Positions 377-49,884 of a stretch of 64,000 nucleotides of DNA are shown piece by piece (position 1 is the stretch's first letter; every line of letters starts with the position of its first letter). A program made the position numbers and the translations under genes. Under the pieces are notes generated by a model, which made no database searches, was not told where the DNA came from, and saw only the letters and a list, made by a program, of their open reading frames with translations. This DNA comes from Candidatus Zixiibacteriota bacterium (GTDB lineage: Bacteria > RBG-13-66-14 > B26-G2 > WVWN01), in assembly GCA_050117845.1 (NCBI GenBank), contig JASFLY010000008.1, positions 18,108-82,107 on the forward strand. Reading direction: 5' to 3'.

Positions 377-475
377 CAGGCCGGATTATAAAACAATAAG
401 GCCCCGGCGGCAAGCGGGGCCCCAAAGAAAAAACCGGCCGAAGCCGGTTGTCATGATTTAGGAAAATGTTGCGGC

Positions 476-7392: not shown

Positions 7393-7393
7393 C

Positions 7394-8677: not shown

Positions 8678-8716
8678 CGCGGCTCCGGCCGGACGCCGAG
8701 GGCGCGCTTGGATTCG

Positions 8717-11972: not shown

Positions 11973-12089
11973 AATCGGGGATTTTAGCAAAGGCGGGCCG
12001 TTTAGTAAAGACCCGATTGCGCCTTCGAGTCCCAATCCTGTTGGCATTTGGGCCGGAATGGGTTAAAATTATAGGGTGATATTAAGGTT

Positions 12090-15000: not shown

Positions 15001-15326
15001 GCGGTATGGCCCGGGACATGGAGGAGCTGGAAGGGGAGCTCCGCGCCGGCAATCTGGACGAGCGGATAATCGAGAAACAGGAGAAGCTGTTGGATCGGAT
15101 GTTGTCGTCCACGCGGGCCCTGCGGGTTCAGGGGCGTTCGAGCCGACGGCGGGCCGAGCCGGCGCGGGAATACGCGCCGGCGGTGGTGGCCCCCCTGCCC
15201 GGCCGCCTGACGGCGCCGAGGCCCGAGGCCGAGCCGGCCAGCGGCGCCCCCGCCGAGGGCTACGTGCCGGCCGACCTGCGCGGCCCCCTGGCCGACTACT
15301 ACCGCCGGATGGCGGGAAGCGAGTAA
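12090..15326 (+). CDS. Large DUF4175-like membrane protein (N-terminal TMs, Ig-like region, long coiled coil)
   Basis: DAPPEVTIVEP...CSDDFGLG...PGDVVAYYVEAFDNDTVNGPKAGRS, followed by heptad-rich helices. Confidence 0.7.
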   Translation: MPGRNVINVVRGLRKRRLLGVAAAFAAGGVSLFAAAFLLAVLFSAWAGWAVALGLAGASACAAGYLLWRLVGRDLRAEARSSRIIAEAESTSPLLRRRLGAAYSVAAAGGRDAGTSPALAAAFLDEVERRLPSRLSAPWGRRARWVPPALLAAAVAAWLTVALAAPGFLGERFTALAEASPGTGGIIAEVSPGDAKVGVDQTLEVNVTLRQDFAGEAAVIVERGGAVARVPLTSANERELRAAVAAGSEDFRYRVVVGAEKSRNFRVTVVPPPVIGALRVVVAPPAYAGLPARALPPGEGDVRALAGATVRIDVGAEGAEAVAAEVPGGTKEFTRAGDGYAGEFTLTRPGTYRLTASSPWGQAQTPYYALDVAPDAPPEVTIVEPTRDLLINDTSRSPRLRFTCSDDFGLGDVRVVYFNEVTGRRLEGRVGSGAGRAELEGDVDLLPEGLELFPGDVVAYYVEAFDNDTVNGPKAGRSATYRFRFPTTAELFERVDDEMSSGVAELEGLREQTRRLREQLRKMDAVGDEENDTPSRPQIRELAEEQERLRRELTEAAEKLEELLECADDNVISPELAAKVYEANRLLEEALDEESKEALRKLSEALREVDPERVRELMEQVKLDQAEMERRLERVIDILKDARREELLRNLALQAEELAACQSDILERLEDADTPARQEDLAKDVPAFGEDVKESAAAFDEVDPALAEALRELGGEFEEGKAPRAARKASRELAEGDLSGAAEAGEVSEQELEELAEALRGMSDKYREGKRQALLAEMDKAVERVLAASHRTERLAAEAALGEAGAGFAGRGKSVAAEVASIGDAATEAASKSLFVSPAIGEALGDIGAEIEAGARNYELGNVRAAAEASARALAGLNVVAAMLLEARDNAASAGSSMGLAEMIEQMKAMAEGQRQLNREGKATMSMMPGMSPSELGAALERLAAEQERIRRGMEELERRGRGGERAGEMGGMARDMEELEGELRAGNLDERIIEKQEKLLDRMLSSTRALRVQGRSSRRRAEPAREYAPAVVAPLPGRLTAPRPEAEPASGAPAEGYVPADLRGPLADYYRRMAGSE

Positions 15327-16597: not shown

Positions 16598-16618
16598 CGC
16601 GGCCGCTGCGAATTCCCA

Positions 16619-17371
16619 ATGGACGAAACCGTAGTATTGATCCAAGCCCGCATGGGCTCGACGCGCTTGCCCGGCAAGGTGCTGTTGCCCCTCGGCGGCG
16701 CGCCGGTCCTGGCGCATGTCGTGGAGAGGTGCGGCACGGCCCCGGGCGTCGGCGCCGTCGTCGTCGCGACGACGGACGAACCGGAGGACGACGCCCTGGC
16801 GGCCTGCGCGGCCGACCTCGGCGCCGGCGTCTTTCGGGGTTCGAGCGCCGACGTGCTGGGCCGTTTCGCCGGCGCGGCCGCGGCCTTCCCCGCCGCGCAT
16901 TATATCCGCATCACCGCGGACTGTCCGCTGGCCGACCCGGCGGTCGTCGGCGCCGTCCTCGCCGCCCATATGGACGGGGGGCGGGATTATTCCTATAATG
17001 ACGTACCCGTCGGTTTCCCCCGCGGCTACGACGTGGAGGTCGTGCGGGGCGCTACCTTATTATGGCTCGCGGAGAACTGCCGCGACGCCGCGTCGCGCGA
17101 ACACGTTACGCCCTATCTCCGGGACCACGCGGCCGACTTCAACGTCGAGAAGGTTATGGGGCCGCCGAGCGCGGACTTTTCCGGTTACCGGCTGGTCCTC
17201 GACGAGGAGGCCGATTACGAGCTGCTTAAGATTATCTACGAAAGATTGGGGGATAAAGGCCCGTTCGGCCTGAACGACGTCCTGGCCCTACTCGCCGCCG
17301 AGCCGGCGCTGGCCGAGATAAACCGCGACGTGCGGCAGAAGGACAGGCCGCCGACGCCCGGGGTCGGGTAA
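16619..17371 (+). CDS. SpsF/PseF-like acylneuraminate cytidylyltransferase
   Basis: IQARMGSTRLPGKVL, RGSSADVLGRF, RITADCPLADP, REHVTPY. Confidence 0.9.
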   Translation: MDETVVLIQARMGSTRLPGKVLLPLGGAPVLAHVVERCGTAPGVGAVVVATTDEPEDDALAACAADLGAGVFRGSSADVLGRFAGAAAAFPAAHYIRITADCPLADPAVVGAVLAAHMDGGRDYSYNDVPVGFPRGYDVEVVRGATLLWLAENCRDAASREHVTPYLRDHAADFNVEKVMGPPSADFSGYRLVLDEEADYELLKIIYERLGDKGPFGLNDVLALLAAEPALAEINRDVRQKDRPPTPGVG

Positions 17372-17402
17372 AACAAAAACGGTTCACGGATTGTATTGAT
17401 AA

Positions 17403-17432
17403 GAAACGAGCGCCCTCGCGGGCGCTTTTATT
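17403..17432. terminator. Bidirectional intrinsic terminator between convergent genes
   Basis: AAACGAGCGCCC-TCGC-GGGCGCTTTT hairpin. Confidence 0.6.
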
Positions 17433-17937
17433 CTTCTGTGGAGCCGCTGGGCCGGGCCGTAACGACGATGGGGATCTCGCGGCCGTCCCGGGCGAGTGTT
17501 TCCGGGCGTTCCGGCCCGAAGCCGTTTCGGGCGAACACGGCTCGCGAGGCCTGGTTATCCTCTCTTATCCGCGCGACTATCCGGCGGAAGCCGAGTTCGC
17601 GGCTGGCGTAATCGCAGGCCGTCGCCAGCAAACGTCGGCCCACTCCACGGCCGCGCCCTTCCGGGGCGACGATGATGTGGACCTCGGCCTCGCCCGGCGT
17701 CAGCTCGTCGAAGCGCACGACGCCCACCGGCCGGTCGCCCTCGTATCCGAGGAGGATATGACGGCCCTGCCGGCCCAGGGAATCACGAAACCAGGCGGCG
17801 TGCTCTTCCTCGGAGATTTCCTCCGGGCTGAAGGAGGCCGCCCTCGTGGCCGGGTCGTTCCGCCATTCGAGGAGCAAGCGCACGTCGTGGCCGTCGTCGC
17901 GGACCGGCCGCAGCGTAATGGCGGGGCCAGCGGTCAT
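17428..17937 (-). CDS. GNAT N-acetyltransferase (PseH-like)
   Basis: LLEWRNDPATRAASF...EEHAAWF...VGVVRFD...RGRGVG...NQASRAVF. Confidence 0.8.
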   Translation of the reverse strand: MTAGPAITLRPVRDDGHDVRLLLEWRNDPATRAASFSPEEISEEEHAAWFRDSLGRQGRHILLGYEGDRPVGVVRFDELTPGEAEVHIIVAPEGRGRGVGRRLLATACDYASRELGFRRIVARIREDNQASRAVFARNGFGPERPETLARDGREIPIVVTARPSGSTEE

Positions 17938-19025
17938 CAGTCGAAGTCCCCTTCAAGAATGCCGTCGCCGGCCGGGATGTCCCGCGTCGCGCGGCGGCCC
18001 TCGACCCGGCCTATCTCGAAGGGGTTCATCCCCGGCGGGTTCTTCCCGGGACGGAGGATGTCGACGTTTTCGCCCTCGCGCAATACGTCGCCGGCGGCGA
18101 CGCGGCGGATGGCCTGGATGCCCCGCACGCCGTAGTGGCGAAGCTCCTCCTCGGCCTCCTGGGTTTTCTTCTCGCCGGTCCCGCGCATCTTCTCCACTTC
18201 CCGGATAATGCGAACCATGGCGGCCAGCTCGTCCGGCTCGACGGCGTATGCGTGGTCGGGGCCGGGGAGGTTGCGGTCGAGGGTGAAGTGCTTCTCGACG
18301 ACGCGGGCGCCGAGGGCGACGGCCGCGGCCGGCGCGGCCAGGGGGTCGCGGGAATGGTCGGACAGGCCGGCCTGAACGCCGAACATCTCGGCCAGCCGCG
18401 GGATGGCGCGCACGTTCACGGCCTCGGGCGGCGCGGGGTAGGCGGCGGTGCATTGCAGCAGCGCGATGGGCGCGTCGGACGACGCCCGCACGAGATCGAC
18501 GGCCCGCTGGATGTCGGCGTATGTGGCGGCGCCGGTCGACATAATGAGGGGTTTGCCGGTCGTCGCCAGGAACTCGAGAAGGCGGAGGTGGTTGAGTTCG
18601 TACGAGGCGGTCTTGTGGACGCGGACGTACGGATCGACCGCCCGGGCGTCGGCCACCGAGAAGGCGGTGGCCATGAACTCCAGGCCCCGCTCGGCGGCGC
18701 GGGAAGATAGGCCCGCAAGCATCTCGTACGGTATCTCGAGGCCGCCGATGATGTCGAGTATGTCCTCTTTGATGCCGGCCTCGGAGAGGTAATCGCTCGT
18801 TCCCGCCCCGGGGGCATATATGGTCTCGGCCCGGAACACCTGAAACTTGACGGCGTCGCAGCCCGCCCCGGCCGCGACGTCTATGAGCTCGTAGGCGCGC
18901 TCTTCGTCGCCGCCGAGGTTGCCGGCCCGCCAGTTCGACCCGGCCTCCCCGATTATGAAAACCGGCCGGTCCGGCCCGAAGGGGGCCGCGGCGTCCGGCC
19001 GGGCGTCGTTATTCCGTTGGTCCAT
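17937..19025 (-). CDS. N-acetylneuraminate synthase family (NeuB/PseI/SpsE) with C-terminal SAF domain
   Basis: DAVKFQ, HKTASYELNH, KPLIMSTG, LLQCTAAYP, GLSDHS, VEKHFTLDRNLPGPDH. Confidence 0.92.
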   Translation of the reverse strand: MDQRNNDARPDAAAPFGPDRPVFIIGEAGSNWRAGNLGGDEERAYELIDVAAGAGCDAVKFQVFRAETIYAPGAGTSDYLSEAGIKEDILDIIGGLEIPYEMLAGLSSRAAERGLEFMATAFSVADARAVDPYVRVHKTASYELNHLRLLEFLATTGKPLIMSTGAATYADIQRAVDLVRASSDAPIALLQCTAAYPAPPEAVNVRAIPRLAEMFGVQAGLSDHSRDPLAAPAAAVALGARVVEKHFTLDRNLPGPDHAYAVEPDELAAMVRIIREVEKMRGTGEKKTQEAEEELRHYGVRGIQAIRRVAAGDVLREGENVDILRPGKNPPGMNPFEIGRVEGRRATRDIPAGDGILEGDFD

Positions 19026-19029
19026 TTCC

Positions 19030-19806
19030 TTATTTGATGCCGAAATCCTTGAGGCCCGTCGCGATGCCGACGAGGTCGAGTTTTTCCGGCTCCTCGGTGA
19101 TGGCGGTCATGGCGCCGGAGTCGCCGTAATCCACGAGTTCCAGCGTTCCCTTCTCGTGCTCGGAGTACGCGATGCCGAAGACGGGGACGTCCTCACAGGC
19201 GTACGCGTAGCCGACCTCGCGGCCTCCCTTTTTGAGGATCAGCTTCTCGCAGGCGATTTTTTTGCCGCTCAACGTGTCGTACTTGACCGCGCCGGCCTCC
19301 ACGGCGTCCACGTCCGAGCCGCCGCCGAAGACCTCGTTCAGGTCCGGCCCCTGGCCGACGAGTTCGAGCGCCTCCTGCAAAAGCTGCAACTCCTGGAGCG
19401 GGAGTTCGACCGCCCGGTCCTCCCCGACTTTCACGATGAAGCGTTTCGATTCCTTCGTCAAGTCCTTGCCGCTCTCGAGGAAGGAGACGCGGTCGAGTTG
19501 GGGCACGAGGGCTTTGGAGATGACTTTGCGTTCGTCGCGTTCGGCTACGACCTCGAGCCAGAAGTACGTATCGCCCGAAACGTTCTCGCTCCCGGTCAAC
19601 GCGACGAAGACCTCGGACTCCTTGCCGCCCCGACTCATCAGGCGGTACTCGCACCAGCGGCCGACCTCCCACTGTCCCACGGCCTCGGTGAGAACTTCCT
19701 CGATCGGCGTGGGGGGCGGGAGTTCCTCCCCTTTATCGCAGGAACTGCATCCGGCGTAAATGAAAAGGGACGCCGGGATAACGAGTGCCAATAAGTAGCG
19801 GGTCAT
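19030..19806 (-). CDS. Hypothetical lipoprotein
   Basis: ATG 19806 after GGGAGG; MTRYLLALVIPASLFIYAGC lipobox. This is the 3' part of ORF-track 19030..20748. Confidence 0.75.
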   Translation of the reverse strand: MTRYLLALVIPASLFIYAGCSSCDKGEELPPPTPIEEVLTEAVGQWEVGRWCEYRLMSRGGKESEVFVALTGSENVSGDTYFWLEVVAERDERKVISKALVPQLDRVSFLESGKDLTKESKRFIVKVGEDRAVELPLQELQLLQEALELVGQGPDLNEVFGGGSDVDAVEAGAVKYDTLSGKKIACEKLILKKGGREVGYAYACEDVPVFGIAYSEHEKGTLELVDYGDSGAMTAITEEPEKLDLVGIATGLKDFGIK

Positions 19807-29663: not shown

Positions 29664-30647
29664 ATGGGAACGGATAAAATACGACGTTTGTTGCTTGCGG
29701 CCGCGGCCGGGGCGTTGTTGGCGTCCGCCGCCGCGGCGTCATCTTACAATTACGAAGGAAAATGGCAGGAGTATTTGGGAGTGGCCGATTGGGAATTCGA
29801 GATAGGACCCATTTCCGGGGATGATTCCAAGGTAGCGGTGCCTTATATTTGCGCGTCGAGTATCGCGGCGATAGATGTTGGATGCAGGTTATTCGACGCG
29901 AACGGTGCCTATCTCGGTTATTGTAAATATTTTTTAAGCTCGTACGATCATTACGAAAACGGCGGGATTTACGGGTGCGCTGCGGTAGGCGAAGGCGCGG
30001 TAACGACCTTCACCGTGCATTATTACGATTTGAGCGAGGAAATATATAAAACCGAAAGCCATTTATCGTACGGTCCGAACCCAAGTTGGGATATTAAGGA
30101 GGACGGGTGGGGCCGCTTCAAAGCCCTGGCGCGGACTCCCGACGGCCAGAGTTTCTATTGCTACCGGTTATATTCCGGCGATTACAGGATATGTAAAATG
30201 ACGGTCGCCGGGACCGTAACGAGTTATTTCACGCCTTTGGCCGTGCCGGACGATATGGCGGTGGACGCCTCGGGTAATATATATGGTTTATCGGGGGGGT
30301 GGGTATTTAAATACGACGCTAGCGGTTCTTTAATAACGTCGTGGGATACTCCGGTCACGCTTAACGACGTATGCGTCGACGCTAACGACCGGATATTGGG
30401 TTTCTCGAATAGTAATATGTACACGTACGTCTTTAGCGACGCGGGTTCCCTCTTGGGCAGCTTCACCGCGCCGTACGAGTCTATCACAAGGCACGGCAGT
30501 ACCGGTCCGGACGGGAAATATTTCGTCGCATGTGAAGCCTGGGATCAGGAGATTTTTATATGTTTCGTTGAGATGTACCGGTTCGCCCCCGTTCCGACCA
30601 ACATCGTCCCTACTAGTTTGGGTAAAATAAAGGCCATGTACCAGTAA
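29664..30647 (+). CDS. Secreted beta-propeller-like (NHL-like) protein with conserved C-terminal tail motif
   Basis: Signal peptide ...LLASAAAA; PDDMAVDASGNIY repeats; ends NIVPTSLGKIKAMYQ. Confidence 0.8.
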   Translation: MGTDKIRRLLLAAAAGALLASAAAASSYNYEGKWQEYLGVADWEFEIGPISGDDSKVAVPYICASSIAAIDVGCRLFDANGAYLGYCKYFLSSYDHYENGGIYGCAAVGEGAVTTFTVHYYDLSEEIYKTESHLSYGPNPSWDIKEDGWGRFKALARTPDGQSFYCYRLYSGDYRICKMTVAGTVTSYFTPLAVPDDMAVDASGNIYGLSGGWVFKYDASGSLITSWDTPVTLNDVCVDANDRILGFSNSNMYTYVFSDAGSLLGSFTAPYESITRHGSTGPDGKYFVACEAWDQEIFICFVEMYRFAPVPTNIVPTSLGKIKAMYQ

Positions 30648-30664: not shown

Positions 30665-30692
30665 ACGCCGCCCTTCGGGGCGGCGTTTTTTA
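30665..30692. terminator. Intrinsic terminator between convergent genes
   Basis: ACGCCGCCC-TTCG-GGGCGGCGT followed by a T run. Confidence 0.75.
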
Positions 30693-31310
30693 TTCCTCGG
30701 CCGGTCTCGCTTTTCGCCTCTCCCGGGCCAGGTGCCACCACCGCTTAACGTAGGCCGTGGAATAGAACCTTCCCGAGACGACGCATATCCCGACGAGTAC
30801 GCCCCAGGCCGCGCCGCCCAGGACGTCCCCGGGGTAGTGCACGCCGACGTATATGCGGGAGTAGCAAACCAGCAGCGCCACGCCGAAGAGCGCCGCGCCG
30901 ACGCGCTTATATTCCGTGAAGACGACGAAGGCGAAGGCGAACGTGTTGGCGGCGTGGGCCGAGGGGAAGGCGGGGGAGTTCGCCTGGTGCGGCAACAGCA
31001 GGCGCACCGTCTCGAGGGCGAAGGGCGGCCGGACCCGGCCGAAGAGCGGCTTGAGGAGGCGGGCCGTCGTGACGTCGACCAGCGCCACCGCCACCGCCCC
31101 GGCGATGACGCAGTATATGCCGGCGCGCCGGTACCGCGCGGGAAGGTATATCGCCGCCAGCGCCGAGACGCCGATGTAGAAAAACTTGTGCGTGATTATA
31201 AGGAAGACGCCGTCGAGGTAGGGGCAGGCCAGCGTCTGGTTGAAAAAGGCGAACAGCGCCCGGTCTATTTCGCCGAGAACGCCCCAGTCGATGCCGGCGA
31301 GGAAGTCCAC
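30690..31310 (-). CDS. PAP2-family phosphatase (undecaprenyl-pyrophosphate phosphatase-like)
   Basis: KPLFGRVRP, FPSAHAAN, SRIYVGVHYPGDV. Confidence 0.9.
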   Translation of the reverse strand: MDFLAGIDWGVLGEIDRALFAFFNQTLACPYLDGVFLIITHKFFYIGVSALAAIYLPARYRRAGIYCVIAGAVAVALVDVTTARLLKPLFGRVRPPFALETVRLLLPHQANSPAFPSAHAANTFAFAFVVFTEYKRVGAALFGVALLVCYSRIYVGVHYPGDVLGGAAWGVLVGICVVSGRFYSTAYVKRWWHLARERRKARPAEE

Positions 31311-31312
31311 GG

Positions 31313-33541
31313 TTACCGGTCGCCCCTCAGCGCGGCGAAGGCCGCGTGGGCCGCGTCGTCGTACGGGTCCAGCGCGAGGGCCTGCTCGGCCGCGTACGCC
31401 CCGGCGGCCGCGTTGCCCGATTCCAGCTCGAGCCAGGTCAGGCCGTCCCAGGCGCCGACGAGGCGCGGGCAGAGCTCGAGGGCCCGGATGAAGTTCTCGC
31501 GGCCGGCGTCCATCTCCTTGGCCTGATAATGCTCGACGCCGGCGTTGTAATATTCCAGCGCCCGGTCGATGTCCTCGTACACCTTAACGGAGAAGTCCTC
31601 GTCGTAGTAGCCGTCCTTCTCCGCCGGGCCCGCGAACAACGGCGACGGCGGCCCGAGGTCCGGCCCCTCCCGGCCGGGAACGCCCACCAGGAAGACCCGC
31701 CACGATACCGTCTCGAAGACCGGCGCGAAGTGCTCGAGCTCGGCCGGTTCGAACTGCATTTTATAGGCGCACGAGTCCGCCCGCACCCGCGTTATCGCCC
31801 GGGCGTAGCGCATCGAGTCGGGATCGTTTTTAACGATATAGGCGGCGTGGTAGGCCACGTACGTGACGTCGTATTTCTCGCATACGCCGTAAAATCCTTC
31901 CTCGTCGCCGTAAAGCGCCTGGTAGCACTCGTTGACCTTGGCTCGCATCCCCGGGGCCTCGTATATGGGGTGGAGTACGATGGGCGTGCCGGCGAAGGCC
32001 AGAAGCGCCGCCGAGGCCGGGAAGGGCCCCAGGACCGCCGTCTCCGTCCGGTCCGGCTGGAAGCCGAACCATCGGATGATCCGCCATTCCTCGTCGCCGA
32101 CGTTGGAGGCGTAGCCGCCCTCGCCGGACGCGGCCGCCTCCAGCAGGGCGGTCCAGGGTTGGGGGCGGCTCTCGTACCGGGCGGCCTTGATGCCCTCGAA
32201 AGGCAATAGCACCGCCGGGATGAGGAGCCACGCCAACGCCCGGCGGCCGGGGCGGGCCAGGCCGGCGTACCCCGCGGCCCAGGCCGCGACGAAGAACGCC
32301 AGCACGACCATGAAACGGGTATACCCGGAGAAGAGCAGCGCGAAGACGACGGAGAAAACGATCGTGGCCGCGCCGAAGGCCCCGGCGGCGGGGTCGCGCA
32401 GGCCCCGCAAGAATTCCTTGACGTATTTGACGAGCGGCGGCAGGGCGATAACGAGCGGCAGCACCAGCACCGCCGCGGCCGAGGCCCACGTCGGCGAGTT
32501 GGCCGGCCCCGTCCATATCTCCCGGGCCGCGAGGGGGAGCAGGTTCGGGTCGGCCGGCTTGACGCCCATGTACCGGATCTTGTAGAAGATCATCGTGTAG
32601 ATGTGGGAGTACTCGCCGGCGGCGGCGAAGGGCCGCCCCGCGCCGTAAGCCACGCCGAAGATGACGCCCAGCGCCACCAGCCGCTGCCACCACTTGAGCC
32701 GCCACTTCCAGGCCGCGAGCGCCGTGGCCGCCACCGCGCACGCGAGCGCGAACGACGGCGACGCCAGGAAAACTTTCTCGCGCAGGGCCGGGTGGATATA
32801 GGCGACGAGGGCCGCGGCGCCGAGCGCGGCGGCCGCCCGCCCCACGCCCCGGCTGTCCTTCGAGACAAGGACCGTCGCCGCCAGCGGCAGCGTCGCGAAG
32901 AAGTAGAGGAAGGACGACGCGTGCCAGCTGATGAGCGCGAGCGCGAAGGCCGCGACCGCCGGCGGTATCCAGCGCCAGCTTCCCCCCTCGACGAGGCGGG
33001 TCTGGCAGTAGAGCGCGAAGAAGAAGACCGGCAGGACGAAATCCTCCCGGAGGTAGTTGCCGCAGGTTCTAAGGTAGATAACGAGGGAGAGGCCGTATAC
33101 CAGCGCGGCCAACAGGCCCCCCGGCCTGGACCTGAAGGTCCGCCGGCCCCACAGGTAAACCAGGAAGAGCGTGAGCGAACTCCACAGCGAAACGTGCCAG
33201 CGCAGGAAGTTCTGCGGTTGCATCTCGCCGAGGAGGGGTCTGAGGATGCGGTACGATACGCCGATGAAGGCGTCCTGCGTCAAGAAAAACGCTCGCCGCA
33301 CGTCTACGCCCTCGGGCCACTGGGCGGCGCGGTCGAGCGCCGGGATCTCTTCGCCCAGCGCATACATCCGTACGTAGCGGAAGCGGAAGGCCGGGTCGGA
33401 CGCGAGGTACATGTCCGGCGGCCAGTGGTACAGCTTCAGCGAGACCACCGCGACGTATAGCGCCACGAGCGCGACGCCGGTGTAAAGCACCGGCCGGCGA
33501 GAGAGGAATTCCCGTATGGCTGCGAGTCGGCTCAAAATCAT
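31313..33541 (-). CDS. GT-C glycosyltransferase of the STT3/DPY19 superfamily with C-terminal TPR; resembles DPY19
   Basis: ASDPAFRFRY, YLREDFVLP, SWHASSFLY, PIVLHPIYEAPGMRAKV, HFAPVFETVSWRVFLV, then TPR helices. Confidence 0.7.
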   Translation of the reverse strand: MILSRLAAIREFLSRRPVLYTGVALVALYVAVVSLKLYHWPPDMYLASDPAFRFRYVRMYALGEEIPALDRAAQWPEGVDVRRAFFLTQDAFIGVSYRILRPLLGEMQPQNFLRWHVSLWSSLTLFLVYLWGRRTFRSRPGGLLAALVYGLSLVIYLRTCGNYLREDFVLPVFFFALYCQTRLVEGGSWRWIPPAVAAFALALISWHASSFLYFFATLPLAATVLVSKDSRGVGRAAAALGAAALVAYIHPALREKVFLASPSFALACAVAATALAAWKWRLKWWQRLVALGVIFGVAYGAGRPFAAAGEYSHIYTMIFYKIRYMGVKPADPNLLPLAAREIWTGPANSPTWASAAAVLVLPLVIALPPLVKYVKEFLRGLRDPAAGAFGAATIVFSVVFALLFSGYTRFMVVLAFFVAAWAAGYAGLARPGRRALAWLLIPAVLLPFEGIKAARYESRPQPWTALLEAAASGEGGYASNVGDEEWRIIRWFGFQPDRTETAVLGPFPASAALLAFAGTPIVLHPIYEAPGMRAKVNECYQALYGDEEGFYGVCEKYDVTYVAYHAAYIVKNDPDSMRYARAITRVRADSCAYKMQFEPAELEHFAPVFETVSWRVFLVGVPGREGPDLGPPSPLFAGPAEKDGYYDEDFSVKVYEDIDRALEYYNAGVEHYQAKEMDAGRENFIRALELCPRLVGAWDGLTWLELESGNAAAGAYAAEQALALDPYDDAAHAAFAALRGDR

Positions 33542-34158: not shown

Positions 34159-34421
34159 GTTGTGTGGGTGGGTTGGCGTAAATTATAGGTTAATATTTTT
34201 TTATACCAAACCGAAGGGCGTTGTGATATTTTACCTTTGGGAAGGTGGAAGGTGACAGAATAATAAACGAGACCCGACGCTCGCCGTGCCCCTGATGGGG
34301 GACGGGCGGCGGGGGTTTAGGCTAACTCCGTTTCGCGCGTTGTTTAAATAATAGGCTGGCGCGGTCGATTAACAAGGAACCAGTTAGGAACCCACGGCGG
34401 GAAATACCGGAAGGACGAGAT

Positions 34422-36290
34422 ATGCGGGTAACCGAATTCCGTATTAAGAATTACAAGTCGATAATAGACACCGGGTGGTGCGAATTAGCGAAAGATATCA
34501 CGGTTTTAGCCGGGAAGAACGAAGCCGGAAAGACAGCCGTTTTAGAAGCGTTGAGGGATTTCGACCCGAGGATAGAAGAAATAAGCGCTGAAGCATACCC
34601 TAAGCACAGGCAAGGGGTGCCGGAAATAGGAATTAAACTCGAAACGGGGAGAGAAGAAATCGATAGAATATTAAACGGGGCCGATCTGAACGTCGATTAT
34701 AAAGCAGCGAAAGAAATAGCGGCCAAAGGGATAGTAATCTGCAGAGACCCGGACGGTTATTATTTAACTAACGATACTATTATTGGGGGGCTTTCCTTTA
34801 AGGAAGAGCACGAAAACAGTGCTTATAGAGACAGTATCCTTAGTTTGACTAATCTGATTAATTCTATTTATAGTAAATACGGTAGGCATTTCGAAATAGA
34901 ATTAGGTGAAACGAAAGAAGAAGCCAGGAATGCGGTTACTCAAACAGTATTCCCTTTAAAAAGCCAGTTGACTATCATACCTGATATAGGGGAAAGAAAT
35001 CGCGCGAATATTCTATTCGAAAAACTCGAAGGTTTCCTAGATACCAAAGAAAGCGAAAACGAAGACGCGCACGGAAAATTCGCGACGGCGGTAGCAGAAA
35101 ATATCCCTAAGGTCGTATTCTTTAGTACCTTCGACGATATTTTGCCCGATGAGATAAGCTTGGAAAAAGCCTCTAATACCGAAATTGTATTAGATTTCGC
35201 AAAAATTGCTGGGCTTGATTTCGATTCGGTTAGAAGAACTGACGACGCCCAAGATAAGCGTAATTTATTCAGCAAGGCTTCGGCAAAATTGTCCGGTTAT
35301 TTCGGGGGTTTTTACACGCAAAGCAATGTAGAAATAACGGCAGAGTTAGAAGTCGATACTATAAGGTTTTGGGTAGTGGAAGAGGGTGGCCCTACGCATT
35401 ATAAAACCACGCAACGGAGTAAAGGTTTCCAGTGGTTTTTATCTTTCTTCTTACGTTTGCGCGCGAGAGGAGGCGAAGATAATATGATATTAATCGATGA
35501 GCCGGGTTTATATCTCCACGCGAAAGCTCAACAAGACGTTTTAAAAGTACTAACGAAAACCGCTACTAACGGCCAATTAATATATAGTACGCATTCGCCC
35601 TATCTCATCGACGCAGGCCGCTTAGATAGGGTTAGATTATTGGTTAATAAGAAAGATATTGGTTCTGAAATAATAAACGAAATACATAAAGAAGCGGACC
35701 AAGAAACTCTAACGCCAATTTTGACTGCGATAGGCTTAGATTTAACTTTCGGTTTGAATTTATTCGGGGATTTCAACGTAGTTACTGAAGGCCCGTCTGA
35801 TTATTATTACCTATTGAGTTTCAAGAACATCCTTAAAGAACGGGGGGATTTTAGTATTATACCCTGTATGGGTGGTACTAAGACTCCTCATTTAGTATCG
35901 CTTTTAATAGGATGGGGTTTTAATTATTGTGTTGTATTGGATAACGATCCAACCGGCAAGAGAGTTAGTAACCAGATGCAGAAAAGACTCCCCGTTGAAG
36001 GGGAACGATTCGTATTCGCTGGCCCGATTGTAGGTGATTCGATAGAAGATTTATTCGCTATTGAAGACTTTAAAAAATACGTTCTCGAGGACGATACCGT
36101 TAAAATCGCGAAAGGTAAAATATCTGGATTCCTGAAAGCTAGCAATATAAAAAAAGTCTTAATTGCAAAACGGTTTTTCGAAAAAACATTAAAAAACGGC
36201 CGTAAAATAAAACTTACACAAGAAACGAAAGCGAACTTCGCCGGCCTCCTGGGTCAGGTCCTCGCGGTAAAGAAAAAGTACAAACGTTGA
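34422..36290 (+). CDS. OLD-family ATP-dependent endonuclease (ABC ATPase + TOPRIM), AT-rich, probable anti-phage gene
   Basis: LAGKNEAGKT, SKGFQWF, LIDEPGLYLH, YSTHSP, TOPRIM VTEGPSD and VLDND; strongly A/T-rich codons compared with flanking genes. Confidence 0.85.
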   Translation: MRVTEFRIKNYKSIIDTGWCELAKDITVLAGKNEAGKTAVLEALRDFDPRIEEISAEAYPKHRQGVPEIGIKLETGREEIDRILNGADLNVDYKAAKEIAAKGIVICRDPDGYYLTNDTIIGGLSFKEEHENSAYRDSILSLTNLINSIYSKYGRHFEIELGETKEEARNAVTQTVFPLKSQLTIIPDIGERNRANILFEKLEGFLDTKESENEDAHGKFATAVAENIPKVVFFSTFDDILPDEISLEKASNTEIVLDFAKIAGLDFDSVRRTDDAQDKRNLFSKASAKLSGYFGGFYTQSNVEITAELEVDTIRFWVVEEGGPTHYKTTQRSKGFQWFLSFFLRLRARGGEDNMILIDEPGLYLHAKAQQDVLKVLTKTATNGQLIYSTHSPYLIDAGRLDRVRLLVNKKDIGSEIINEIHKEADQETLTPILTAIGLDLTFGLNLFGDFNVVTEGPSDYYYLLSFKNILKERGDFSIIPCMGGTKTPHLVSLLIGWGFNYCVVLDNDPTGKRVSNQMQKRLPVEGERFVFAGPIVGDSIEDLFAIEDFKKYVLEDDTVKIAKGKISGFLKASNIKKVLIAKRFFEKTLKNGRKIKLTQETKANFAGLLGQVLAVKKKYKR

Positions 36291-36367
36291 GGTTATCGAT
36301 TAATCGGTTTAAATACGGCTCGAAGGGGCCCGCGAGTTAGCCTAACTGCACGATTAGGTAATCCCTC

Positions 36368-36913
36368 GTATTCGACCGCCACAAACACCACCGCCGGTCC
36401 GTCCGCCTCCGCGGTTACGATTATTCGTGGCCGGGGGCGTATTACGTGACCATCTGCACCTACGGCCGGGAATGCGTGTTCGGCGCCGTCCGCGGCCGAG
36501 CGGCCCGGTTGAACGAATACGGCCGCGTCGCCCGCGACGAATGGTTGCGTTCGGCGGCGGTGCGGGATGAAATCGAATTGGACGCGTTCGTGATAATGCC
36601 GAACCACGTCCACGGCATCGTCATCATCACCGGCGACCCGGTGGTAGGGGCGACCGGCCGGTCGCCCCTACATGATACCGCCGGCCGACCGCGGGGGCCG
36701 GCCAAACGTTCGTTATCGTCGTTCATCGGCGGATACAAACCCGCCGTCACCCGCCGCGTCAACGCGCTACGCGATTCGCCGGGGGCGCGGGTGTGGCAAC
36801 GCAATTATTACGAACACATAATCCGGGACGACGACGAATTAGGCCGCATCCGCGGTTACATGATAACGAACCCCGGCCGCTGGGCCGACGACGAATATTA
36901 TATAAATACGTAG
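36368..36913 (+). mobile_element. REP-associated tyrosine transposase (RAYT, IS200/Y1 HUH family); conserved N-terminus lies upstream of the first GTG (36446)
   Basis: FDRHKHHRRSVRLRGYDYSWPGAYYVTICT, IMPNHVHGI (HUH), WQRNYYEHIIRD...YMITNP; GTAG-REP palindromes inside the gene (36644-36671) and at the stop (36910-36937). Confidence 0.88.
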
Positions 36914-47660: not shown

Positions 47661-48773
47661 ATGGCGGACAACAAGGATTTCTACGCGACGCTCGGCGTGC
47701 CCGAGAAAGCTTCGGACAACGACATTAAAAAGGCTTATCGCCAGCTCGCGATGAAGTACCACCCCGACCGCAACAAGGAGGACGGCGCGGCCGACAGGTT
47801 CAAGGCCATCAACGAGGCCTACCAGACGCTGTCCGACCCCAAGAAGCGCCAGGAATACGACATGCTCCGCAAGTACGGCGGCGCGTTCACCGGGCCCGGC
47901 GGCCCGGGGGCCGGGGGTTTCGACTTCTCGCAGTACGGCCAGCCGGGCGGCGGCCAGTCCGTCGAGTTCGACCTGGGTGACCTCGGCGGCCTGGGCGGCC
48001 TCTTCGACCAGATTTTCCGAGGGGGCGGGAAAGGAGGTCGGCAGGCCGAGCCGACCACGAATAACGACATCGAGATGAACATCGACGTGCCGTTCTCGAC
48101 CGCGGTCAAGGGCGGGACGGCCAAGATAAACCTGGGCCGGGAGGAACCCTGCCTGACGTGCGCCGGCACCGGCGCCGCCCCCGGGACCCAGCCGCGAACC
48201 TGCCCTCAGTGCGAGGGCCGCGGCACCGTCGTCATGGGGATGGGGAAGTTCGGCGTAACGCGGGCCTGCCCCACCTGCGCCGGCAAGGGCACCGTCGTCG
48301 ACACCCCCTGCCCGGACTGCAAGGGAAAGGGCTCCCGCCGGGCCAGGCGGCCGCTCAAGGTCCGCATCCCGTCCGGCATCAACGACGGCGGCGTCATCCG
48401 TGTCAAAGGAGAGGGGAACGTCGGGCCGGGCGGCCTGCGCGGCGACCTCTATATCACCGTTCGCGTGAAGGAGGATAAGCACTTCCGTCGCGAGGGGCTG
48501 GACACCTACGGCGAGGTCGAGCTGAATTTGTCCGAGGCCGTGCTGGGAGCGAAGAAGGAAGTCGAAACGGTTCAGGGTAAAGTAAAAATAAAAATACCGG
48601 CGGGGATTCAGGCTGGGAAGAAGATACGCATAAAGAAAAAGGGCGTCCGCGACGAGCGGACGGGCCGCGTCGGCGACCACTACGTCCTGGTGAAAGTGGA
48701 CGTTCCCAAGAAGATGACGCGGGAGCAAAAAGAGCTCTTCGAGAAGTACGCCGCGGCCATGGGGTGGACCTAA
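47661..48773 (+). CDS. dnaJ: Chaperone DnaJ (J domain, G/F region, four CxxCxGxG repeats)
   Basis: KYHPDRN; CLTCAGTG, CPQCEGRG, CPTCAGKG, CPDCKGKG. Confidence 0.95.
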   Translation: MADNKDFYATLGVPEKASDNDIKKAYRQLAMKYHPDRNKEDGAADRFKAINEAYQTLSDPKKRQEYDMLRKYGGAFTGPGGPGAGGFDFSQYGQPGGGQSVEFDLGDLGGLGGLFDQIFRGGGKGGRQAEPTTNNDIEMNIDVPFSTAVKGGTAKINLGREEPCLTCAGTGAAPGTQPRTCPQCEGRGTVVMGMGKFGVTRACPTCAGKGTVVDTPCPDCKGKGSRRARRPLKVRIPSGINDGGVIRVKGEGNVGPGGLRGDLYITVRVKEDKHFRREGLDTYGEVELNLSEAVLGAKKEVETVQGKVKIKIPAGIQAGKKIRIKKKGVRDERTGRVGDHYVLVKVDVPKKMTREQKELFEKYAAAMGWT

Positions 48774-48774
48774 C

Positions 48775-49866
48775 GTGCCGCGTGGGAGGCCGAGTATGGG
48801 GAGAGGACCCGGGAGGGGAAGGCTGTACCTGGCCGCCGTGGCGGCGGCTGTGTTCCTGGCGGCCGGCGTCGCTGGCGCGTGGATCGTCGAGGACGTTCCG
48901 TACGAACCCGCGAAGATAGCGAACAAGGACTTCCAGCGGGGCATGACGTATTTCCCGGTCGACCGGATGTTCGACCCGGGGTCGAAACAACTTAAGAACG
49001 TCGACCGCATGCTCGCCACCGGCGCCGAGTGGGTGGCGCTTGTGCCCGTCTGGTACCAGCGGGACAAGTCCGCCACGGCCATAAGGCCGGACTCGATTAA
49101 AACTCCCTCCGATAAATGCGTGCGGACCGTCATCCGCTATCTCCACGAAAAGGGCGCCAAGGTGATGCTGAAGCCGTACGTAGACAGCCACGACGGCACC
49201 TGGCGCGCGAAGTTCGAGCCCACGAGCACCTTCGCGTGGTTCAATTCGTACCGGGGTTTTATGAACCACTACGCTGACATGGCGGCCGAGGAGGACGTGG
49301 AACTCCTCTGCGTCGGCTGCGAGTACAGTTGGTGCGACGAGGCCGAGTACGATTCCTGGGAAGTCGTCATGGATTCCGTGCGCTCGCGCTACGACGGCGA
49401 GATAACGTACGCGGCGGACTGGAAGAACTACCGGGACGTTTGCTTCTGGGAACTCGTCGACTTCGTCGGCGTCGACGCCTATTTCCCGCTCTCGGATGAG
49501 GACGACGTCGCGCTCTCGGATCTGGTGAAGACCTGGGACTACCGACTGGGCCGGATGGGCGATTGGCGCCGCGACGCCCGGTTGACCGATAAAAAGATAA
49601 TCCTCACGGAAGTTGGTTATCAATCGCGGCCGGCGTGCTGGAAGACGCCAGCCTTCACCAAGGACGAACGGCCGGACGCCAAGGCCCAGGACGTCTGCTA
49701 CCGAGCTCTCCTCATGACGGCGCCGGGCCGCGCCTGGCTGGCCGGCATTTACGTCTGGTCCTGGGACAACTGGAGCCCCAACTCCGGCGGCCTCAACGAC
49801 AACAAGTGGACGCCCAAGGGCAAGCCGGCCGAAAAAACCCTCTCCGATTTTTACAAAGGCGACTGA
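48775..49866 (+). CDS. Exported glycoside hydrolase, GH113-like TIM barrel
   Basis: Signal/TM segment; VMLKPYVD, LCVGCEY, ITYAADW, GVDAYFPL, ILTEVGY. Confidence 0.75.
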   Translation: MPRGRPSMGRGPGRGRLYLAAVAAAVFLAAGVAGAWIVEDVPYEPAKIANKDFQRGMTYFPVDRMFDPGSKQLKNVDRMLATGAEWVALVPVWYQRDKSATAIRPDSIKTPSDKCVRTVIRYLHEKGAKVMLKPYVDSHDGTWRAKFEPTSTFAWFNSYRGFMNHYADMAAEEDVELLCVGCEYSWCDEAEYDSWEVVMDSVRSRYDGEITYAADWKNYRDVCFWELVDFVGVDAYFPLSDEDDVALSDLVKTWDYRLGRMGDWRRDARLTDKKIILTEVGYQSRPACWKTPAFTKDERPDAKAQDVCYRALLMTAPGRAWLAGIYVWSWDNWSPNSGGLNDNKWTPKGKPAEKTLSDFYKGD

Positions 49867-49884
49867 CGCCGCACCGGGAACTTA

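What the first reader, a model, noticed from the sequence alone, without database searches (positions are those of the whole stretch)
31313..33541. Bacterial GT-C resembling the eukaryotic DPY19 tryptophan C-mannosyltransferase
Seen in sequence, compared with my recollection of DPY19 motifs: YLREDFVLP vs PLRESFxYP; SWHASSFLY vs PWQFAQFVL; AVLGPFPASAALLAFAGTPIVLHPIYEAPGMRAKV vs AVFAGxMPTMASVKLSxxRPIVNHPHYEDAGLRART; KYDVTYV vs KLKVNYY; HFAPVFETVSWRVFLV vs HFTTVFQNSVYKVLEV. An acidic residue in the first external loop (ASDPAF) lies where GT-C catalytic acids sit. The STT3/PglB WWDYG motif is absent. A TPR is appended. Established: DPY19 (GT98) C-mannosylates WxxW/C in animals and apicomplexans using a lipid-phosphate-mannose donor. 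Inference: a bacterial protein-modifying GT-C, possibly a C-glycosyltransferase. Its substrate is unknown; WxxW occurs in two exported proteins here (WRVW in 57699, WDNW in 48775) but is not obviously enriched.
Basis: partly seen in the sequence, partly recalled or inferred. Interest (0 to 1): 0.78.

Follow-up and report, generated by a model that had tools for sequence, protein, structure and literature searches.

The report
Bacterial DPY19-like glycosyltransferase with TPR tail
This gene from an uncultured wetland bacterium encodes a membrane sugar-transferase that is a true relative of the animal enzyme that attaches mannose to tryptophan (DPY19); it belongs to a large, unstudied bacterial family lying between DPY19 and the N-glycosylation enzyme STT3, but what it glycosylates is unknown.

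Summary

**Relationship to DPY19**
- Pfam Dpy19 matches above its gathering score.
- C. elegans DPY-19 is the best solved-structure match by sequence profile (E 2.7e-10).
- hhalign against animal DPY19s gives E 1e-30 over 544 columns, from the first external loop to the end of the luminal dome.

**Relationship to STT3**
- By fold, DPY19 and eukaryotic STT3 tie (E about 4e-17). DPY19 has the better TM-score (0.73). AglB and PglB are far behind.
- Over the N-terminal half, the bacterial family matches both DPY19 (1e-12) and STT3 (1e-10). Those two do not match each other (0.34). The family is a sequence bridge between them.

**Residues**
- Five of the six residues reported essential for CeDPY19 in the papers read are conserved: E71, R211, E220, R471 and E579.
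- The Trp(+3) clamp K473, the Trp(0) aromatics Y395 and F401, and the disulfide cysteines are not conserved.
- OST hallmarks are absent: WWD in 0 of 105 sequences, and no first EL2 acid.

**Conclusion**
It is most likely an active, DPY19-type, metal-independent glycosyltransferase facing the periplasm, with a TPR module that recruits a protein acceptor. C-mannosylation of tryptophan is possible but unsupported. The family has at least 150 clusters at 50% identity and no description in the literature I searched.

The parts
31313..33541 (-). Whole gene: 742-aa DPY19-like GT-C glycosyltransferase with a C-terminal TPR module
   Evidence: ORF; Pfam Dpy19 above its gathering score; hhalign E 1e-30 against animal DPY19; AF2 model with pLDDT 92.4 and pTM 0.91
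32174..33541 (-). Membrane GT-C core, residues 1-456, about 13 transmembrane helices
   Evidence: Helix layout of the model; aligned to the CeDPY19 transmembrane region; the topology itself is inferred from DPY19 and STT3
33371..33406 (-). First external loop motif LASDPAFRFRYV. D49 (33395-33397) is the putative catalytic acid, equivalent to CeDPY19 Glu71
   Evidence: hhalign pairs D49 with E71. The position is acidic in 105 of 105 family members (E 91, D 14). The role of E71 is from PMC10154233
33308..33334 (-). EL1 motif DRAAQWPEG. D70 is Asp in 103 of 105 and P76 is Pro in 105 of 105. D70 aligns with DPY19 D98 and Q74 with E102
33038..33070 (-). EL2 motif R158-x5-L-R-E166-D-F, the DPY19-type 'Rx6LRE' with one residue less spacing
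   Evidence: R158 pairs with R211 and E166 with E220. Both are essential in CeDPY19 (PMC6801728). R is present in 104 of 105 and E in 104 of 105. L164 sits where STT3A has the metal-binding D167
32921..32926 (-). W206-H207. W206 is equivalent to CeDPY19 Trp262, which H-bonds the donor phosphate
   Evidence: W in 104 of 105
32489..32626 (-). Long external loop EL5 (residues 306-351) with family-specific motif YSH..(7)..K...G.KP.DP..LP..AR..W. H313, K321 and W343 are invariant or nearly so
   Evidence: H313 pairs with H375 and K321 with K383. W343 is Trp in 105 of 105. The DPY19 Trp(0) aromatics Y395 and F401 are not matched
32315..32317 (-). R409, equivalent to CeDPY19 Arg471 (salt bridge to the donor phosphate; essential)
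   Evidence: R 101 plus K 4 of 105
31622..32173 (-). Periplasmic alpha/beta 'dome' domain, residues 457-640
   Evidence: Aligned to the CeDPY19 luminal dome through its last strand; strands and helices in the model
31937..31972 (-). Active-site loop HPIYEAPGMRAK (524-535), equivalent to the CeDPY19 loop H575-R584 (HPHYEHVGIR)
   Evidence: E528 pairs with E579, which is essential (PMC8433626). Y527 pairs with Y578, and P525 with P576, which contacts the Trp(0) indole
31316..31609 (-). C-terminal TPR module (residues 645-742, five helices), predicted to be periplasmic
   Evidence: TPR hits; helices 648-739; TPR families hit in 44 of 60 family members
30690..31310 (-). Co-transcribed PAP2 lipid-phosphate phosphatase (206 aa). 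Its start lies 2 nt after the GT-C stop codon
   Evidence: Pfam PAP2 E 2e-21; LpxE 6ebu E 7e-13; undecaprenyl-diphosphatase models SepP and YbjG matched below their cutoffs; junction TAA-CC-GTG; adjacency kept in a homolog at 59% identity
30664..30687 (.). GC-rich hairpin between the end of the PAP2 gene and the convergent gene. Likely the end of the two-gene operon
   Evidence: 10-bp stem, 8 GC pairs

Best explanation
The gene encodes an active, periplasm-facing GT-C glycosyltransferase of the DPY19/STT3 class. It has about 13 transmembrane helices, an alpha/beta dome and a TPR tail. It belongs to a large, uncharacterised bacterial family that is closest in sequence to the eukaryotic tryptophan C-mannosyltransferase DPY19.

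Proposed mechanism:
- The donor is a polyprenyl-monophosphate sugar. Its phosphate is held by R409, R158 and the indole of W206, without a metal.
- The acid at position 49 in the first external loop (Asp here, Glu in most of the family) acts as general acid/base.
- E166 and the dome loop HPIYE...R (524-533) complete the active site.
- The acceptor is an extended stretch of a periplasmic or secreted protein. It lies in the groove between the external loops and the dome and is recruited by the TPR module.
- The co-transcribed PAP2 phosphatase handles the lipid carrier.

Shown here: homology, fold, conservation of the catalytic and donor-binding residues, the operon structure, and the size of the family.

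Inferred: the donor type, metal independence, that the acceptor is a protein, and the roles of the TPR and PAP2. The modified amino acid and the sugar are unknown.
For: - Pfam Dpy19 scores 40.5 bits against a cutoff of 27.2. 58 of 60 diverse family members hit Dpy19, and only 3 hit STT3.
- The profile search of the PDB puts CeDPY19 first (E 2.7e-10), with a single alignment of query 109-569 to chain 163-622.
- hhalign against 14 animal DPY19s gives probability 99.85%, E 1.1e-30 and 544 columns (reproduced locally at 3.6e-31).
- Foldseek gives CeDPY19 TM 0.69-0.73, the highest of all targets in both models.
- Residues shown by mutation to be essential in CeDPY19 are conserved: E71 to D/E49 (105/105), R211 to R158 (104/105), E220 to E166 (104/105), R471 to R409 (101 R + 4 K), E579 to E528 (99/105). 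The phosphate-binding W262 corresponds to W206 (104/105). Sources: with roles.
- The OST metal-site acid is replaced by Leu (L164 aligns with STT3A D167), and no EL5 acid is invariant. This matches the metal-independent DPY19.
- A luminal TPR after a GT-C core is sufficient for acceptor-peptide binding in human TMEM260. 44 of 60 family members carry TPRs.
- Genomes of this lineage carry two or three divergent paralogs, as expected for enzymes with different protein clients.
- The PAP2 gene starts 2 nt after the GT-C stop codon, and the adjacency is kept at 59% identity.
Against: - There is no experimental or expression evidence. Only DNA metagenome runs hold the sequence.
- No donor-synthesis gene (GT2 polyprenyl-phosphate sugar synthase) was found next to any family member examined or among the ORFs I scanned in the window, which were not all of them.
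- The PAP2 partner resembles undecaprenyl-diphosphate phosphatases. That would fit a pyrophosphate-linked donor, as in OST, better than a monophosphate donor. It is also missing next to the distant paralogs.
- By fold, STT3A ties with DPY19.
- The window's own clade has Thr at position 519, where 94 of 105 family members and all 14 aligned DPY19s have Arg.
- A protein acceptor is inferred only from kinship and the TPR. GT-C enzymes with lipid or glycan acceptors also exist.
Confidence: 0.55

Rival explanations
1. It is a genuine bacterial tryptophan C-glycosyl (C-mannosyl) transferase. It works as DPY19 does, transferring a hexose from a polyprenyl-phosphate sugar to C2 of a Trp in an extended peptide, but with a sequon different from WxxW.
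For: It shares all the catalytic and donor-side residues of CeDPY19. The dome loop that stacks on Trp(0) is kept: P525 pairs with P576, position 527 (Y578) is aromatic in 100 of 105 sequences, and E528 pairs with E579. R158 pairs with R211 (one side of the Trp(+3) clamp), and a small V/I sits at the L474 floor position. An invariant Trp343 in EL5 lies one residue after the position aligned with F401, and in the alignment next to Y395.
Against: K473, whose Ala mutant is nearly inactive in CeDPY19, is M, S, E, G or A here. Y395 and F401 have no aligned aromatic counterpart. WxxW/C is not enriched in the window (9 observed, 9.4 expected). [quoted passage not shown] The conserved residues are equally those shared with STT3, which makes an N-glycosidic bond, so they do not specify C-glycosylation.
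Confidence: 0.15
2. It is an oligosaccharyltransferase-like enzyme. It transfers a glycan en bloc from undecaprenyl-diphosphate to a protein (N- or O-linked), and the co-transcribed PAP2 recycles the released undecaprenyl-diphosphate.
For: Foldseek E-values tie STT3A with DPY19 (3.7e-17 against 4.3e-17). The N-terminal third is significantly similar to STT3 (E 1.6e-8; hhalign 1.4e-10). The window clade's EL1 motif S-D-P-A-F-R-F-R resembles the STT3 motif F-D-P-Y-F-N-Y-R seen in the sequences. The PAP2 partner is closest to LpxE and to undecaprenyl-diphosphatases. A nonulosonic-acid gene set lies in the same window (NeuB, cytidylyltransferase, GNAT).
Against: The window protein gives no Pfam STT3 hit even at E <= 10, and only 3 of 60 family members hit it. 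WWD is absent in 105 of 105 sequences. The first EL2 metal-binding acid is Leu. No invariant EL5 acid exists. Sequence similarity to STT3A stops after about residue 241, apart from a 29-residue stretch, whereas similarity to DPY19 runs through TM7-13, EL5 and the dome. PglB and AglB, the prokaryotic OSTs, are much more distant (E 3e-8 and 5e-11). PAP2 is not adjacent in the distant paralogs.
Confidence: 0.12
3. It glycosylates a non-protein acceptor (lipid A or LPS core, a cell-wall or capsular glycan, or a lipid-linked intermediate), as ArnT, the Emb/Aft enzymes or the ALG enzymes do. In this reading the TPR mediates assembly with envelope machinery rather than substrate capture.
For: Many bacterial GT-C enzymes act on lipids or glycans. 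ArnT, AftA and ALG12 appear as weaker fold hits. The PAP2 partner's best solved relative is the lipid A 1-phosphatase LpxE. Family members sit next to fatty-acid synthesis or MreBCD/PBP2/RodA genes in some genomes.
Against: The two closest families by a wide margin, DPY19 and STT3, both modify unfolded polypeptides. The dome loop that contacts the peptide in DPY19 is among the best conserved segments. ArnT, Aft and ALG fold scores are 10 or more orders of magnitude weaker. TPR tails in the related GT-C enzyme TMEM260 bind acceptor peptides.
Confidence: 0.18

Closest known systems
DPY19 family tryptophan C-mannosyltransferases (CAZy GT98, Pfam PF10034); reference C. elegans DPY-19, PDB 7ZLG/7ZLH/7ZLI
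   Same: The Pfam model matches above its threshold. Profile-profile E is 1e-30 across the transmembrane core, EL5 and the luminal dome. The TM-score is the best of all targets (0.73). Shared features are the EL1 catalytic acid, R-x5/6-LRE in EL2, Trp in EL3, His and Lys in EL5, Arg in EL6, and the HPxYE...R dome loop.
   Different: It is bacterial and only about 15% identical. It has a C-terminal TPR tail that DPY19 lacks. It lacks the DPY19 EL1 insert (Ce 142-160), all the conserved cysteines, the Trp(+3) clamp Lys473, the EL5 aromatics Tyr395 and Phe401, and the Pro of 'Rx6P' (F416 here). The EL2 spacing is one residue shorter. The catalytic acid is Asp in this clade. Its activity is untested.
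STT3 catalytic subunit of eukaryotic oligosaccharyltransferase (GT66, Pfam PF02516); human STT3A, PDB 6S7O/9N9J
   Same: It has the same 13-helix GT-C fold with an alpha/beta dome, and Foldseek E-values tie with DPY19. The N-terminal third is significantly similar. R158 aligns with R160 and E166 with E169. The EL1 'DPxFxFR' motif resembles the STT3 'DPYFNYR' motif.
   Different: There is no WWDYG motif (0 of 105). The first EL2 acid is missing (Leu in place of D167). No conserved EL5 Glu exists. The window protein has no Pfam STT3 hit. Sequence similarity is lost after about TM6, except for a short dome segment. The prokaryotic OSTs AglB and PglB are much more distant.
TMEM260 and TMTC1-4 protein O-mannosyltransferases (GT-C core, luminal domain and TPR)
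   Same: The domain logic is the same: a polyprenyl-phosphate-sugar GT-C core followed by an extracytoplasmic alpha/beta domain and a TPR module. In TMEM260 the TPR is a five-helix unit that is sufficient to bind the acceptor peptide.
   Different: Those enzymes have 11 transmembrane helices and belong to the PMT clan, whereas this protein has about 13 helices. PMT-type structures are weak fold hits (Pmt4 E 5e-5). No TMEM260-like or DUF1736 Pfam hit was found. A separate true TMEM260-like gene lies elsewhere in the window (49867-51822).

Membership tests
DPY19 / GT98 (Pfam PF10034) | Matches the curated Pfam Dpy19 model above its gathering score | tested here: met
   40.5 bits against a cutoff of 27.2; 58 of 60 diverse family members hit it, best E 1e-29
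DPY19 / GT98 (Pfam PF10034) | Homology extends over the whole enzyme (transmembrane core, EL5 and luminal dome), not only the generic GT-C N-terminus | tested here: met
   hhalign E 1.1e-30, 544 columns, query 45-623 against Ce 64-683; hmmsearch against 7zlg aligns 109-569 to 163-622
DPY19 / GT98 (Pfam PF10034) | 13-helix GT-C fold with an alpha/beta luminal dome, closest to the CeDPY19 structure | tested here: inconclusive
   CeDPY19 has the best TM-score (0.71-0.73) and rmsd (5.3 A), but STT3A ties on E-value (3.7e-17 against 4.3e-17)
DPY19 / GT98 (Pfam PF10034) | EL1 catalytic carboxylate (Glu71; Asp in HsDPY19L4) | tested here: met
   D49 is aligned with E71; the position is acidic in 105 of 105 sequences
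DPY19 / GT98 (Pfam PF10034) | EL2 'Rx6LRE' motif (R211 and E220 essential), as opposed to the STT3 'Rx6DNE' | tested here: met
   R158-TCGNY-LRE166 carries LRE exactly, with spacing x5 instead of x6; motif definition from PMC6801728
DPY19 / GT98 (Pfam PF10034) | Donor-phosphate ligands Arg471 (EL6) and Trp262 (EL3) | tested here: met
   R409 (101 R + 4 K of 105) and W206 (104 of 105). The Pro of 'Rx6P' is not kept (F416; P in 11 of 105)
DPY19 / GT98 (Pfam PF10034) | Dome loop His575-Arg584 (HPHYE...R) with the essential Glu579 | tested here: met
   H524-P-I-Y-E528...R533; E in 99 of 105, R in 100 of 105, aromatic at 527 in 100 of 105
DPY19 / GT98 (Pfam PF10034) | WxxW sequon pocket: Lys473 cation-pi clamp, and the Tyr395/Phe401 groove for Trp(0) | tested here: not met
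   K473 corresponds to M411 (family S/E/G/A/M/T). Y395 corresponds to P336 (P/S) and F401 to I342 (L/M/F). The invariant W343 next door could substitute, but that is unproven
DPY19 / GT98 (Pfam PF10034) | Conserved luminal cysteines and disulfides (for example the one tethering the dome to EL5) | tested here: not met
   None of the DPY19-invariant cysteines checked (C142, C156, C397, C481, C621, C630, C650) is conserved or aligned
DPY19 / GT98 (Pfam PF10034) | Catalyses alpha-C-mannosylation of Trp from a polyprenyl-phosphate mannose donor | not testable with these tools
   This needs an enzyme assay or glycoproteomics
STT3/AglB/PglB oligosaccharyltransferases (GT66) | WWDYG motif in the extracytoplasmic domain | tested here: not met
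   WWD is present in 0 of 105 family members
STT3/AglB/PglB oligosaccharyltransferases (GT66) | EL2 DxD/DNE metal-binding pair and a catalytic EL5 Glu | tested here: not met
   L164 aligns with STT3A D167, and only E166 (aligned with E169) is kept. No EL5 acid is invariant (E310 in 36 of 105, D331 in 74 of 105)
STT3/AglB/PglB oligosaccharyltransferases (GT66) | Matches Pfam STT3 (PF02516) | tested here: not met
   The window protein has no hit at E <= 10; 3 of 60 family members hit it
PMT-clan GT-C with TPR (TMTC1-4, TMEM260) | 11-helix PMT-type core with the DUF1736 or TMEM260-like signature | tested here: not met
   The model has about 13 helices before the dome. The window protein has no such Pfam hit. 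PMT structures are weak fold hits
PMT-clan GT-C with TPR (TMTC1-4, TMEM260) | Extracytoplasmic C-terminal TPR module after the catalytic core | tested here: met
   Five TPR helices at 648-739. That the tail faces the periplasm is inferred from the DPY19/STT3 topology

The most novel reading that the evidence does not exclude
Bacteria of this and related uncultured lineages C-glycosylate tryptophan (or make another unusual amino-acid-sugar bond) on periplasmic or secreted proteins using these DPY19-like enzymes. In that case protein C-glycosylation would not be a eukaryotic invention, and DPY19 would descend from a prokaryotic family that also links it to the oligosaccharyltransferase STT3.
Probability: 0.13. 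Interest if true: 0.9.

Novelty: new variant of a known kind. Interest (0 to 1): 0.62.

Why it matters
Tryptophan C-mannosylation and its enzyme DPY19 are treated as eukaryotic. The reviews I read list animals and apicomplexans, and report no activity in E. coli or yeast.

This work shows a large bacterial family with four properties:
- It has at least 150 clusters at 50% identity.
- It is homologous to DPY19 over the whole enzyme.
- It keeps the residues proven essential for DPY19 catalysis.
- It is also significantly similar to STT3, although DPY19 and STT3 are not detectably similar to each other over the same region.

That gives a concrete intermediate for the long-assumed common origin of C- and N-glycosylation machinery. 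It also offers bacterial proteins as possibly more tractable models for DPY19. DPY19L2 mutations cause globozoospermia, and the Arg involved corresponds to the conserved R158 here.

The family also points to an unexplored protein (or envelope) glycosylation system in FCB-type uncultured bacteria. The same window carries several other GT-C genes, one of them TMEM260-like with a TPR region.

Tried and rejected
- **PDB search with the single sequence or the full-length profile.** The TPR tail swamped both and showed no GT-C. The fix was to cut the alignment at residue 640 (A2).
- **Exhaustive representative search.** I ran it with the TPR still in the profile, so the lower tiers (151,329 hits at E <= 1e-3) are TPR noise. 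Only the top tier of full-length matches is usable.
- **Full-length STT3 set.** The search returned only fragments of 303 aa or less. The STT3 profile comparison is therefore limited to the N-terminal half.
- **Genome-contig scan.** It used narrow peptide patterns and reached only the window's own lineage. The taxonomy of the wider family is still unknown, and the listing of cluster members gave no taxon names.
- **Conserved donor-synthesis or substrate neighbour.** Eight family contexts gave nothing recurrent. SurA-like rotamases lie nearby in two of them, which is too weak to use.
- **Residue mapping.** My first parse of the hhalign output mis-numbered residues after an insert (second half). 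One search corrects it.
- **Overlapping plus-strand ORFs (for example 31346-32209 and 32603-33460).** I rejected them as high-GC artefacts. Only the minus-strand frame has the coding GC3 signature and homologs.
- **RNA evidence.** No RNA runs hold the sequence.


Full report
**1. The observation**

The window has one long ORF at 31313-33541 on the minus strand. It is 742 aa with an ATG start. Its codon-position GC (0.66, 0.48, 0.90) is that of a real gene in this 65% GC genome. The overlapping plus-strand ORFs have no such signature and no homologs.

**2. Is it related to DPY19?**

- Pfam's Dpy19 model matches above its gathering score (40.5 against 27.2 bits). The only other hits are weak TPR matches, and STT3 does not appear even at E <= 10. 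NCBIfam has no model for the protein.
- Searches with the full-length protein against solved structures were swamped by the TPR tail.
- After I cut the alignment at residue 640 (A2), the best solved relative is C. elegans DPY-19 (7zlg, E 2.7e-10). A single alignment runs from residue 109 to 569.
- Human STT3A follows (E 1.6e-8) but only over residues 68-241 plus a 29-residue piece of the dome. STT3B follows at 5e-3. No AglB or PglB appears.
- I recovered full-length CeDPY19 and animal DPY19L1 proteins and compared profiles. hhalign gives probability 99.85%, E 1.1e-30 and 544 aligned columns, from the first external loop (query 45) to the last strand of the dome (query 623).

**3. Fold**

- The first AlphaFold model (20-sequence alignment, pLDDT 80.8) ranked the three CeDPY19 structures first (E 8e-15 to 2e-14, TM 0.69-0.73). 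Eukaryotic STT3 was just behind (3e-14 and weaker) and PglB scored 2e-6.
- A much better model from a 60-sequence alignment (pLDDT 92.4, pTM 0.91) gives a tie on E-value: STT3A 3.7e-17 and CeDPY19 4.3e-17. DPY19 keeps the best TM-scores (0.71-0.73 against 0.64-0.70) and rmsd.
- Further down come AglB (5e-11), PglB (3e-8), AftA, Pmt4, ALG12 and ArnT.
- The fold therefore places the protein in the DPY19/STT3 class of 13-helix GT-C enzymes with an alpha/beta dome. It does not separate the two.

**4. A bridge family**

The exhaustive HMMER search shows that all 150 listed clusters (50%-identity representatives) score at least 300 bits, most of them over nearly the full length. Of 60 diverse members, 58 hit Pfam Dpy19 (best E 1e-29), 3 hit STT3 and 44 carry TPRs.

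Over matched N-terminal halves:

| Comparison | hhalign E-value |
|---|---|
| bacterial family vs DPY19 | 1.1e-12 |
| bacterial family vs STT3 | 1.4e-10 |
| DPY19 vs STT3 | 0.34 (not detectably similar) |

The bacterial family links the two eukaryotic families in sequence space. The window's own clade shows this in miniature. Its EL1 motif S-D-P-A-F-R-F-R-Y looks like the STT3 motif F-D-P-Y-F-N-Y-R. Its EL2, EL6 and dome motifs are of the DPY19 type.

**5. Residues**

Roles come from Bloch et al. 2023 (PMC10154233), Albuquerque-Wendt et al. 2019 (PMC6801728) and the review PMC8433626. Family counts are from 105 sequences.

Conserved:

| CeDPY19 | Role | Window residue | Family |
|---|---|---|---|
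| Glu71 | catalytic acid/base | D49 | acidic in 105/105 (E 91, D 14) |
| Arg211 | essential; phosphate and Trp(+3) contact | R158 | 104/105 |
| Glu220 | essential | E166 | 104/105 |
| Trp262 | H-bond to donor phosphate | W206 | 104/105 |
| Arg471 | essential; salt bridge to phosphate | R409 | R 101, K 4 |
| Glu579 | essential | E528 | 99/105 |
| Arg584 | end of the active-site loop | R533 | 100/105 |
| His375, Lys383 | EL5; no role assigned in what I read | H313, K321 | 101 and 97 of 105 |

The EL2 motif is R-x5-L-R-E. That is the DPY19 'LRE' form rather than the STT3 'DNE' form. L164 sits where STT3A has the metal ligand D167. No EL5 acid is invariant, and WWD is absent in 105 of 105 sequences. 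These points favour a DPY19-like, metal-independent reaction with a monophosphate donor over an OST-like one.

Not conserved:
- The Trp(+3) clamp Lys473 (M here; S, E, G or A in the family).
- The Trp(0) aromatics Tyr395 and Phe401 (P/S and L/M/F). An invariant Trp343 lies one residue after the position aligned with Phe401.
- The Pro of 'Rx6P'.
- The EL1 insert at Ce 142-160.
- The DPY19-invariant cysteines (seven checked).

The catalytic machinery is therefore kept, and the WxxW-specific acceptor pocket is not.

**6. Surroundings**

- A 206-aa PAP2 phosphatase starts 2 nt after the GT-C stop codon (TAA-CC-GTG). A strong hairpin follows it.
- The PAP2 protein is closest to Aquifex LpxE (6ebu, E 7e-13) and to the undecaprenyl-diphosphatase models SepP and YbjG, below their cutoffs.
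- In a homolog at 59% identity the order thioredoxin, GT-C, PAP2, paralogous ~320-aa proteins, HEAT, dnaN is kept.
- PAP2 is not adjacent in the distant branches. Those sit beside fatty-acid synthesis genes, FHA and secretion genes, EF-P, or MreBCD/PBP2/RodA.
- No GT2 donor synthase recurs.
- Genomes of the lineage (MAGs labelled Zixibacteria or Coatesbacteria) hold two or three divergent paralogs each. The window holds only this one.
- The sequence comes from wetland and sediment metagenomes, and no RNA runs were found.

**7. Mechanism**

I propose the following, and none of it is shown directly.

- The protein is N-in with about 13 helices. EL1, EL2, EL5, the dome and the TPR face the periplasm.
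- A polyprenyl-phosphate monosaccharide binds with its phosphate on R409, R158 and W206.
- D49 acts as general acid/base.
- An extended peptide lies under the HPIYE...R loop.
- The five-helix TPR recruits the client protein. In human TMEM260 a luminal TPR behind a GT-C core is sufficient for acceptor-peptide binding.
- The PAP2 partner would serve lipid-carrier turnover.

Confidence levels:

| Claim | Confidence |
|---|---|
| Homolog of the DPY19/STT3 class | about 0.97 |
| Closer to DPY19 than to STT3 | about 0.8 |
| Catalytically active | about 0.85 |
| Acceptor is a protein | about 0.55-0.6 |
| Bond made is a Trp C-glycoside | about 0.13-0.15 |

**8. Known or new**

In the library searched, no paper describes prokaryotic DPY19 homologs. 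Sources name these proteins 'hypothetical' or 'TPR repeat protein'. Precomputed Pfam hits to PF10034 exist for them, so databases already file them under Dpy19 implicitly.

From my own memory, and not checked here, CAZy GT98 lists eukaryotes only.

I rate the finding a new variant of a known kind. It is a bacterial, TPR-fused branch of the DPY19-type GT-C enzymes, and what is notable is its intermediate position toward STT3.

Noticed in passing
window 34326-36913: A low-GC island (GC 0.44 against about 0.65 around it). It carries a solitary OLD-family AAA ATPase/TOPRIM nuclease (34422-36290; PADLOC Old E 2e-24, with AriA, PtuA and GajA also matching) and an IS200-like Y1 transposase fragment (36446-36913). 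In the syntenic relative L001, purL directly follows thioredoxin, so this block is an insertion and probably a mobile defence gene.
   Followed up: partly
window 49867-51822 (+), with 48718-49866 (+): A second GT-C (651 aa) that matches Pfam TMEM260-like (E 9e-18) and PMT_2. Its only match to the TPR-containing family profile is weak (26.5 bits), which suggests a TPR region. It is a bacterial relative of the human protein O-mannosyltransferase TMEM260. It sits directly after a GH113 (beta-mannanase family) gene.
   Followed up: partly
window 10296-12062 (-) and 1-385 (-): Two further PMT_2-type GT-C genes, the second cut by the window edge. The 64-kb window therefore holds at least four GT-C glycosyltransferases.
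   Followed up: no
window 16598-19106: A nonulosonic-acid gene set: a CMP-sugar cytidylyltransferase (16598-17371), a GNAT acetyltransferase (17428-17952, minus strand) and a NeuB-family synthase (17937-19106, minus strand). It lies next to a 1083-aa protein with no family hit (12075-15326).
   Followed up: no
window 29664-30647 (+); L001 11611-14600: An exported ~327-aa protein with only a weak SGL/beta-propeller hit lies convergent to the GT-C/PAP2 operon. The relative L001 has three tandem paralogs at the same place. This is a lineage-specific neighbour and a possible client, but it has no WxxW motif.
   Followed up: partly
window 31985-31987 (residue T519): The window protein and its close relatives have Thr where 94 of 105 family members and all 14 aligned animal DPY19s (R570) have Arg, just before the active-site loop. 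The functional meaning is unknown.
   Followed up: partly
L005 6060-7946; L031 517-2700: SurA-like peptidyl-prolyl isomerase (rotamase) genes lie next to or near two distant family members. This hints at a link with handling of unfolded periplasmic proteins, but two cases are too few to count.
   Followed up: no
window 6007-8677: A PmbA/TldD metallopeptidase pair (6007-7392 and 7382-8677), followed by a 518-aa membrane-like ORF with no family hit (8678-10234).
   Followed up: no
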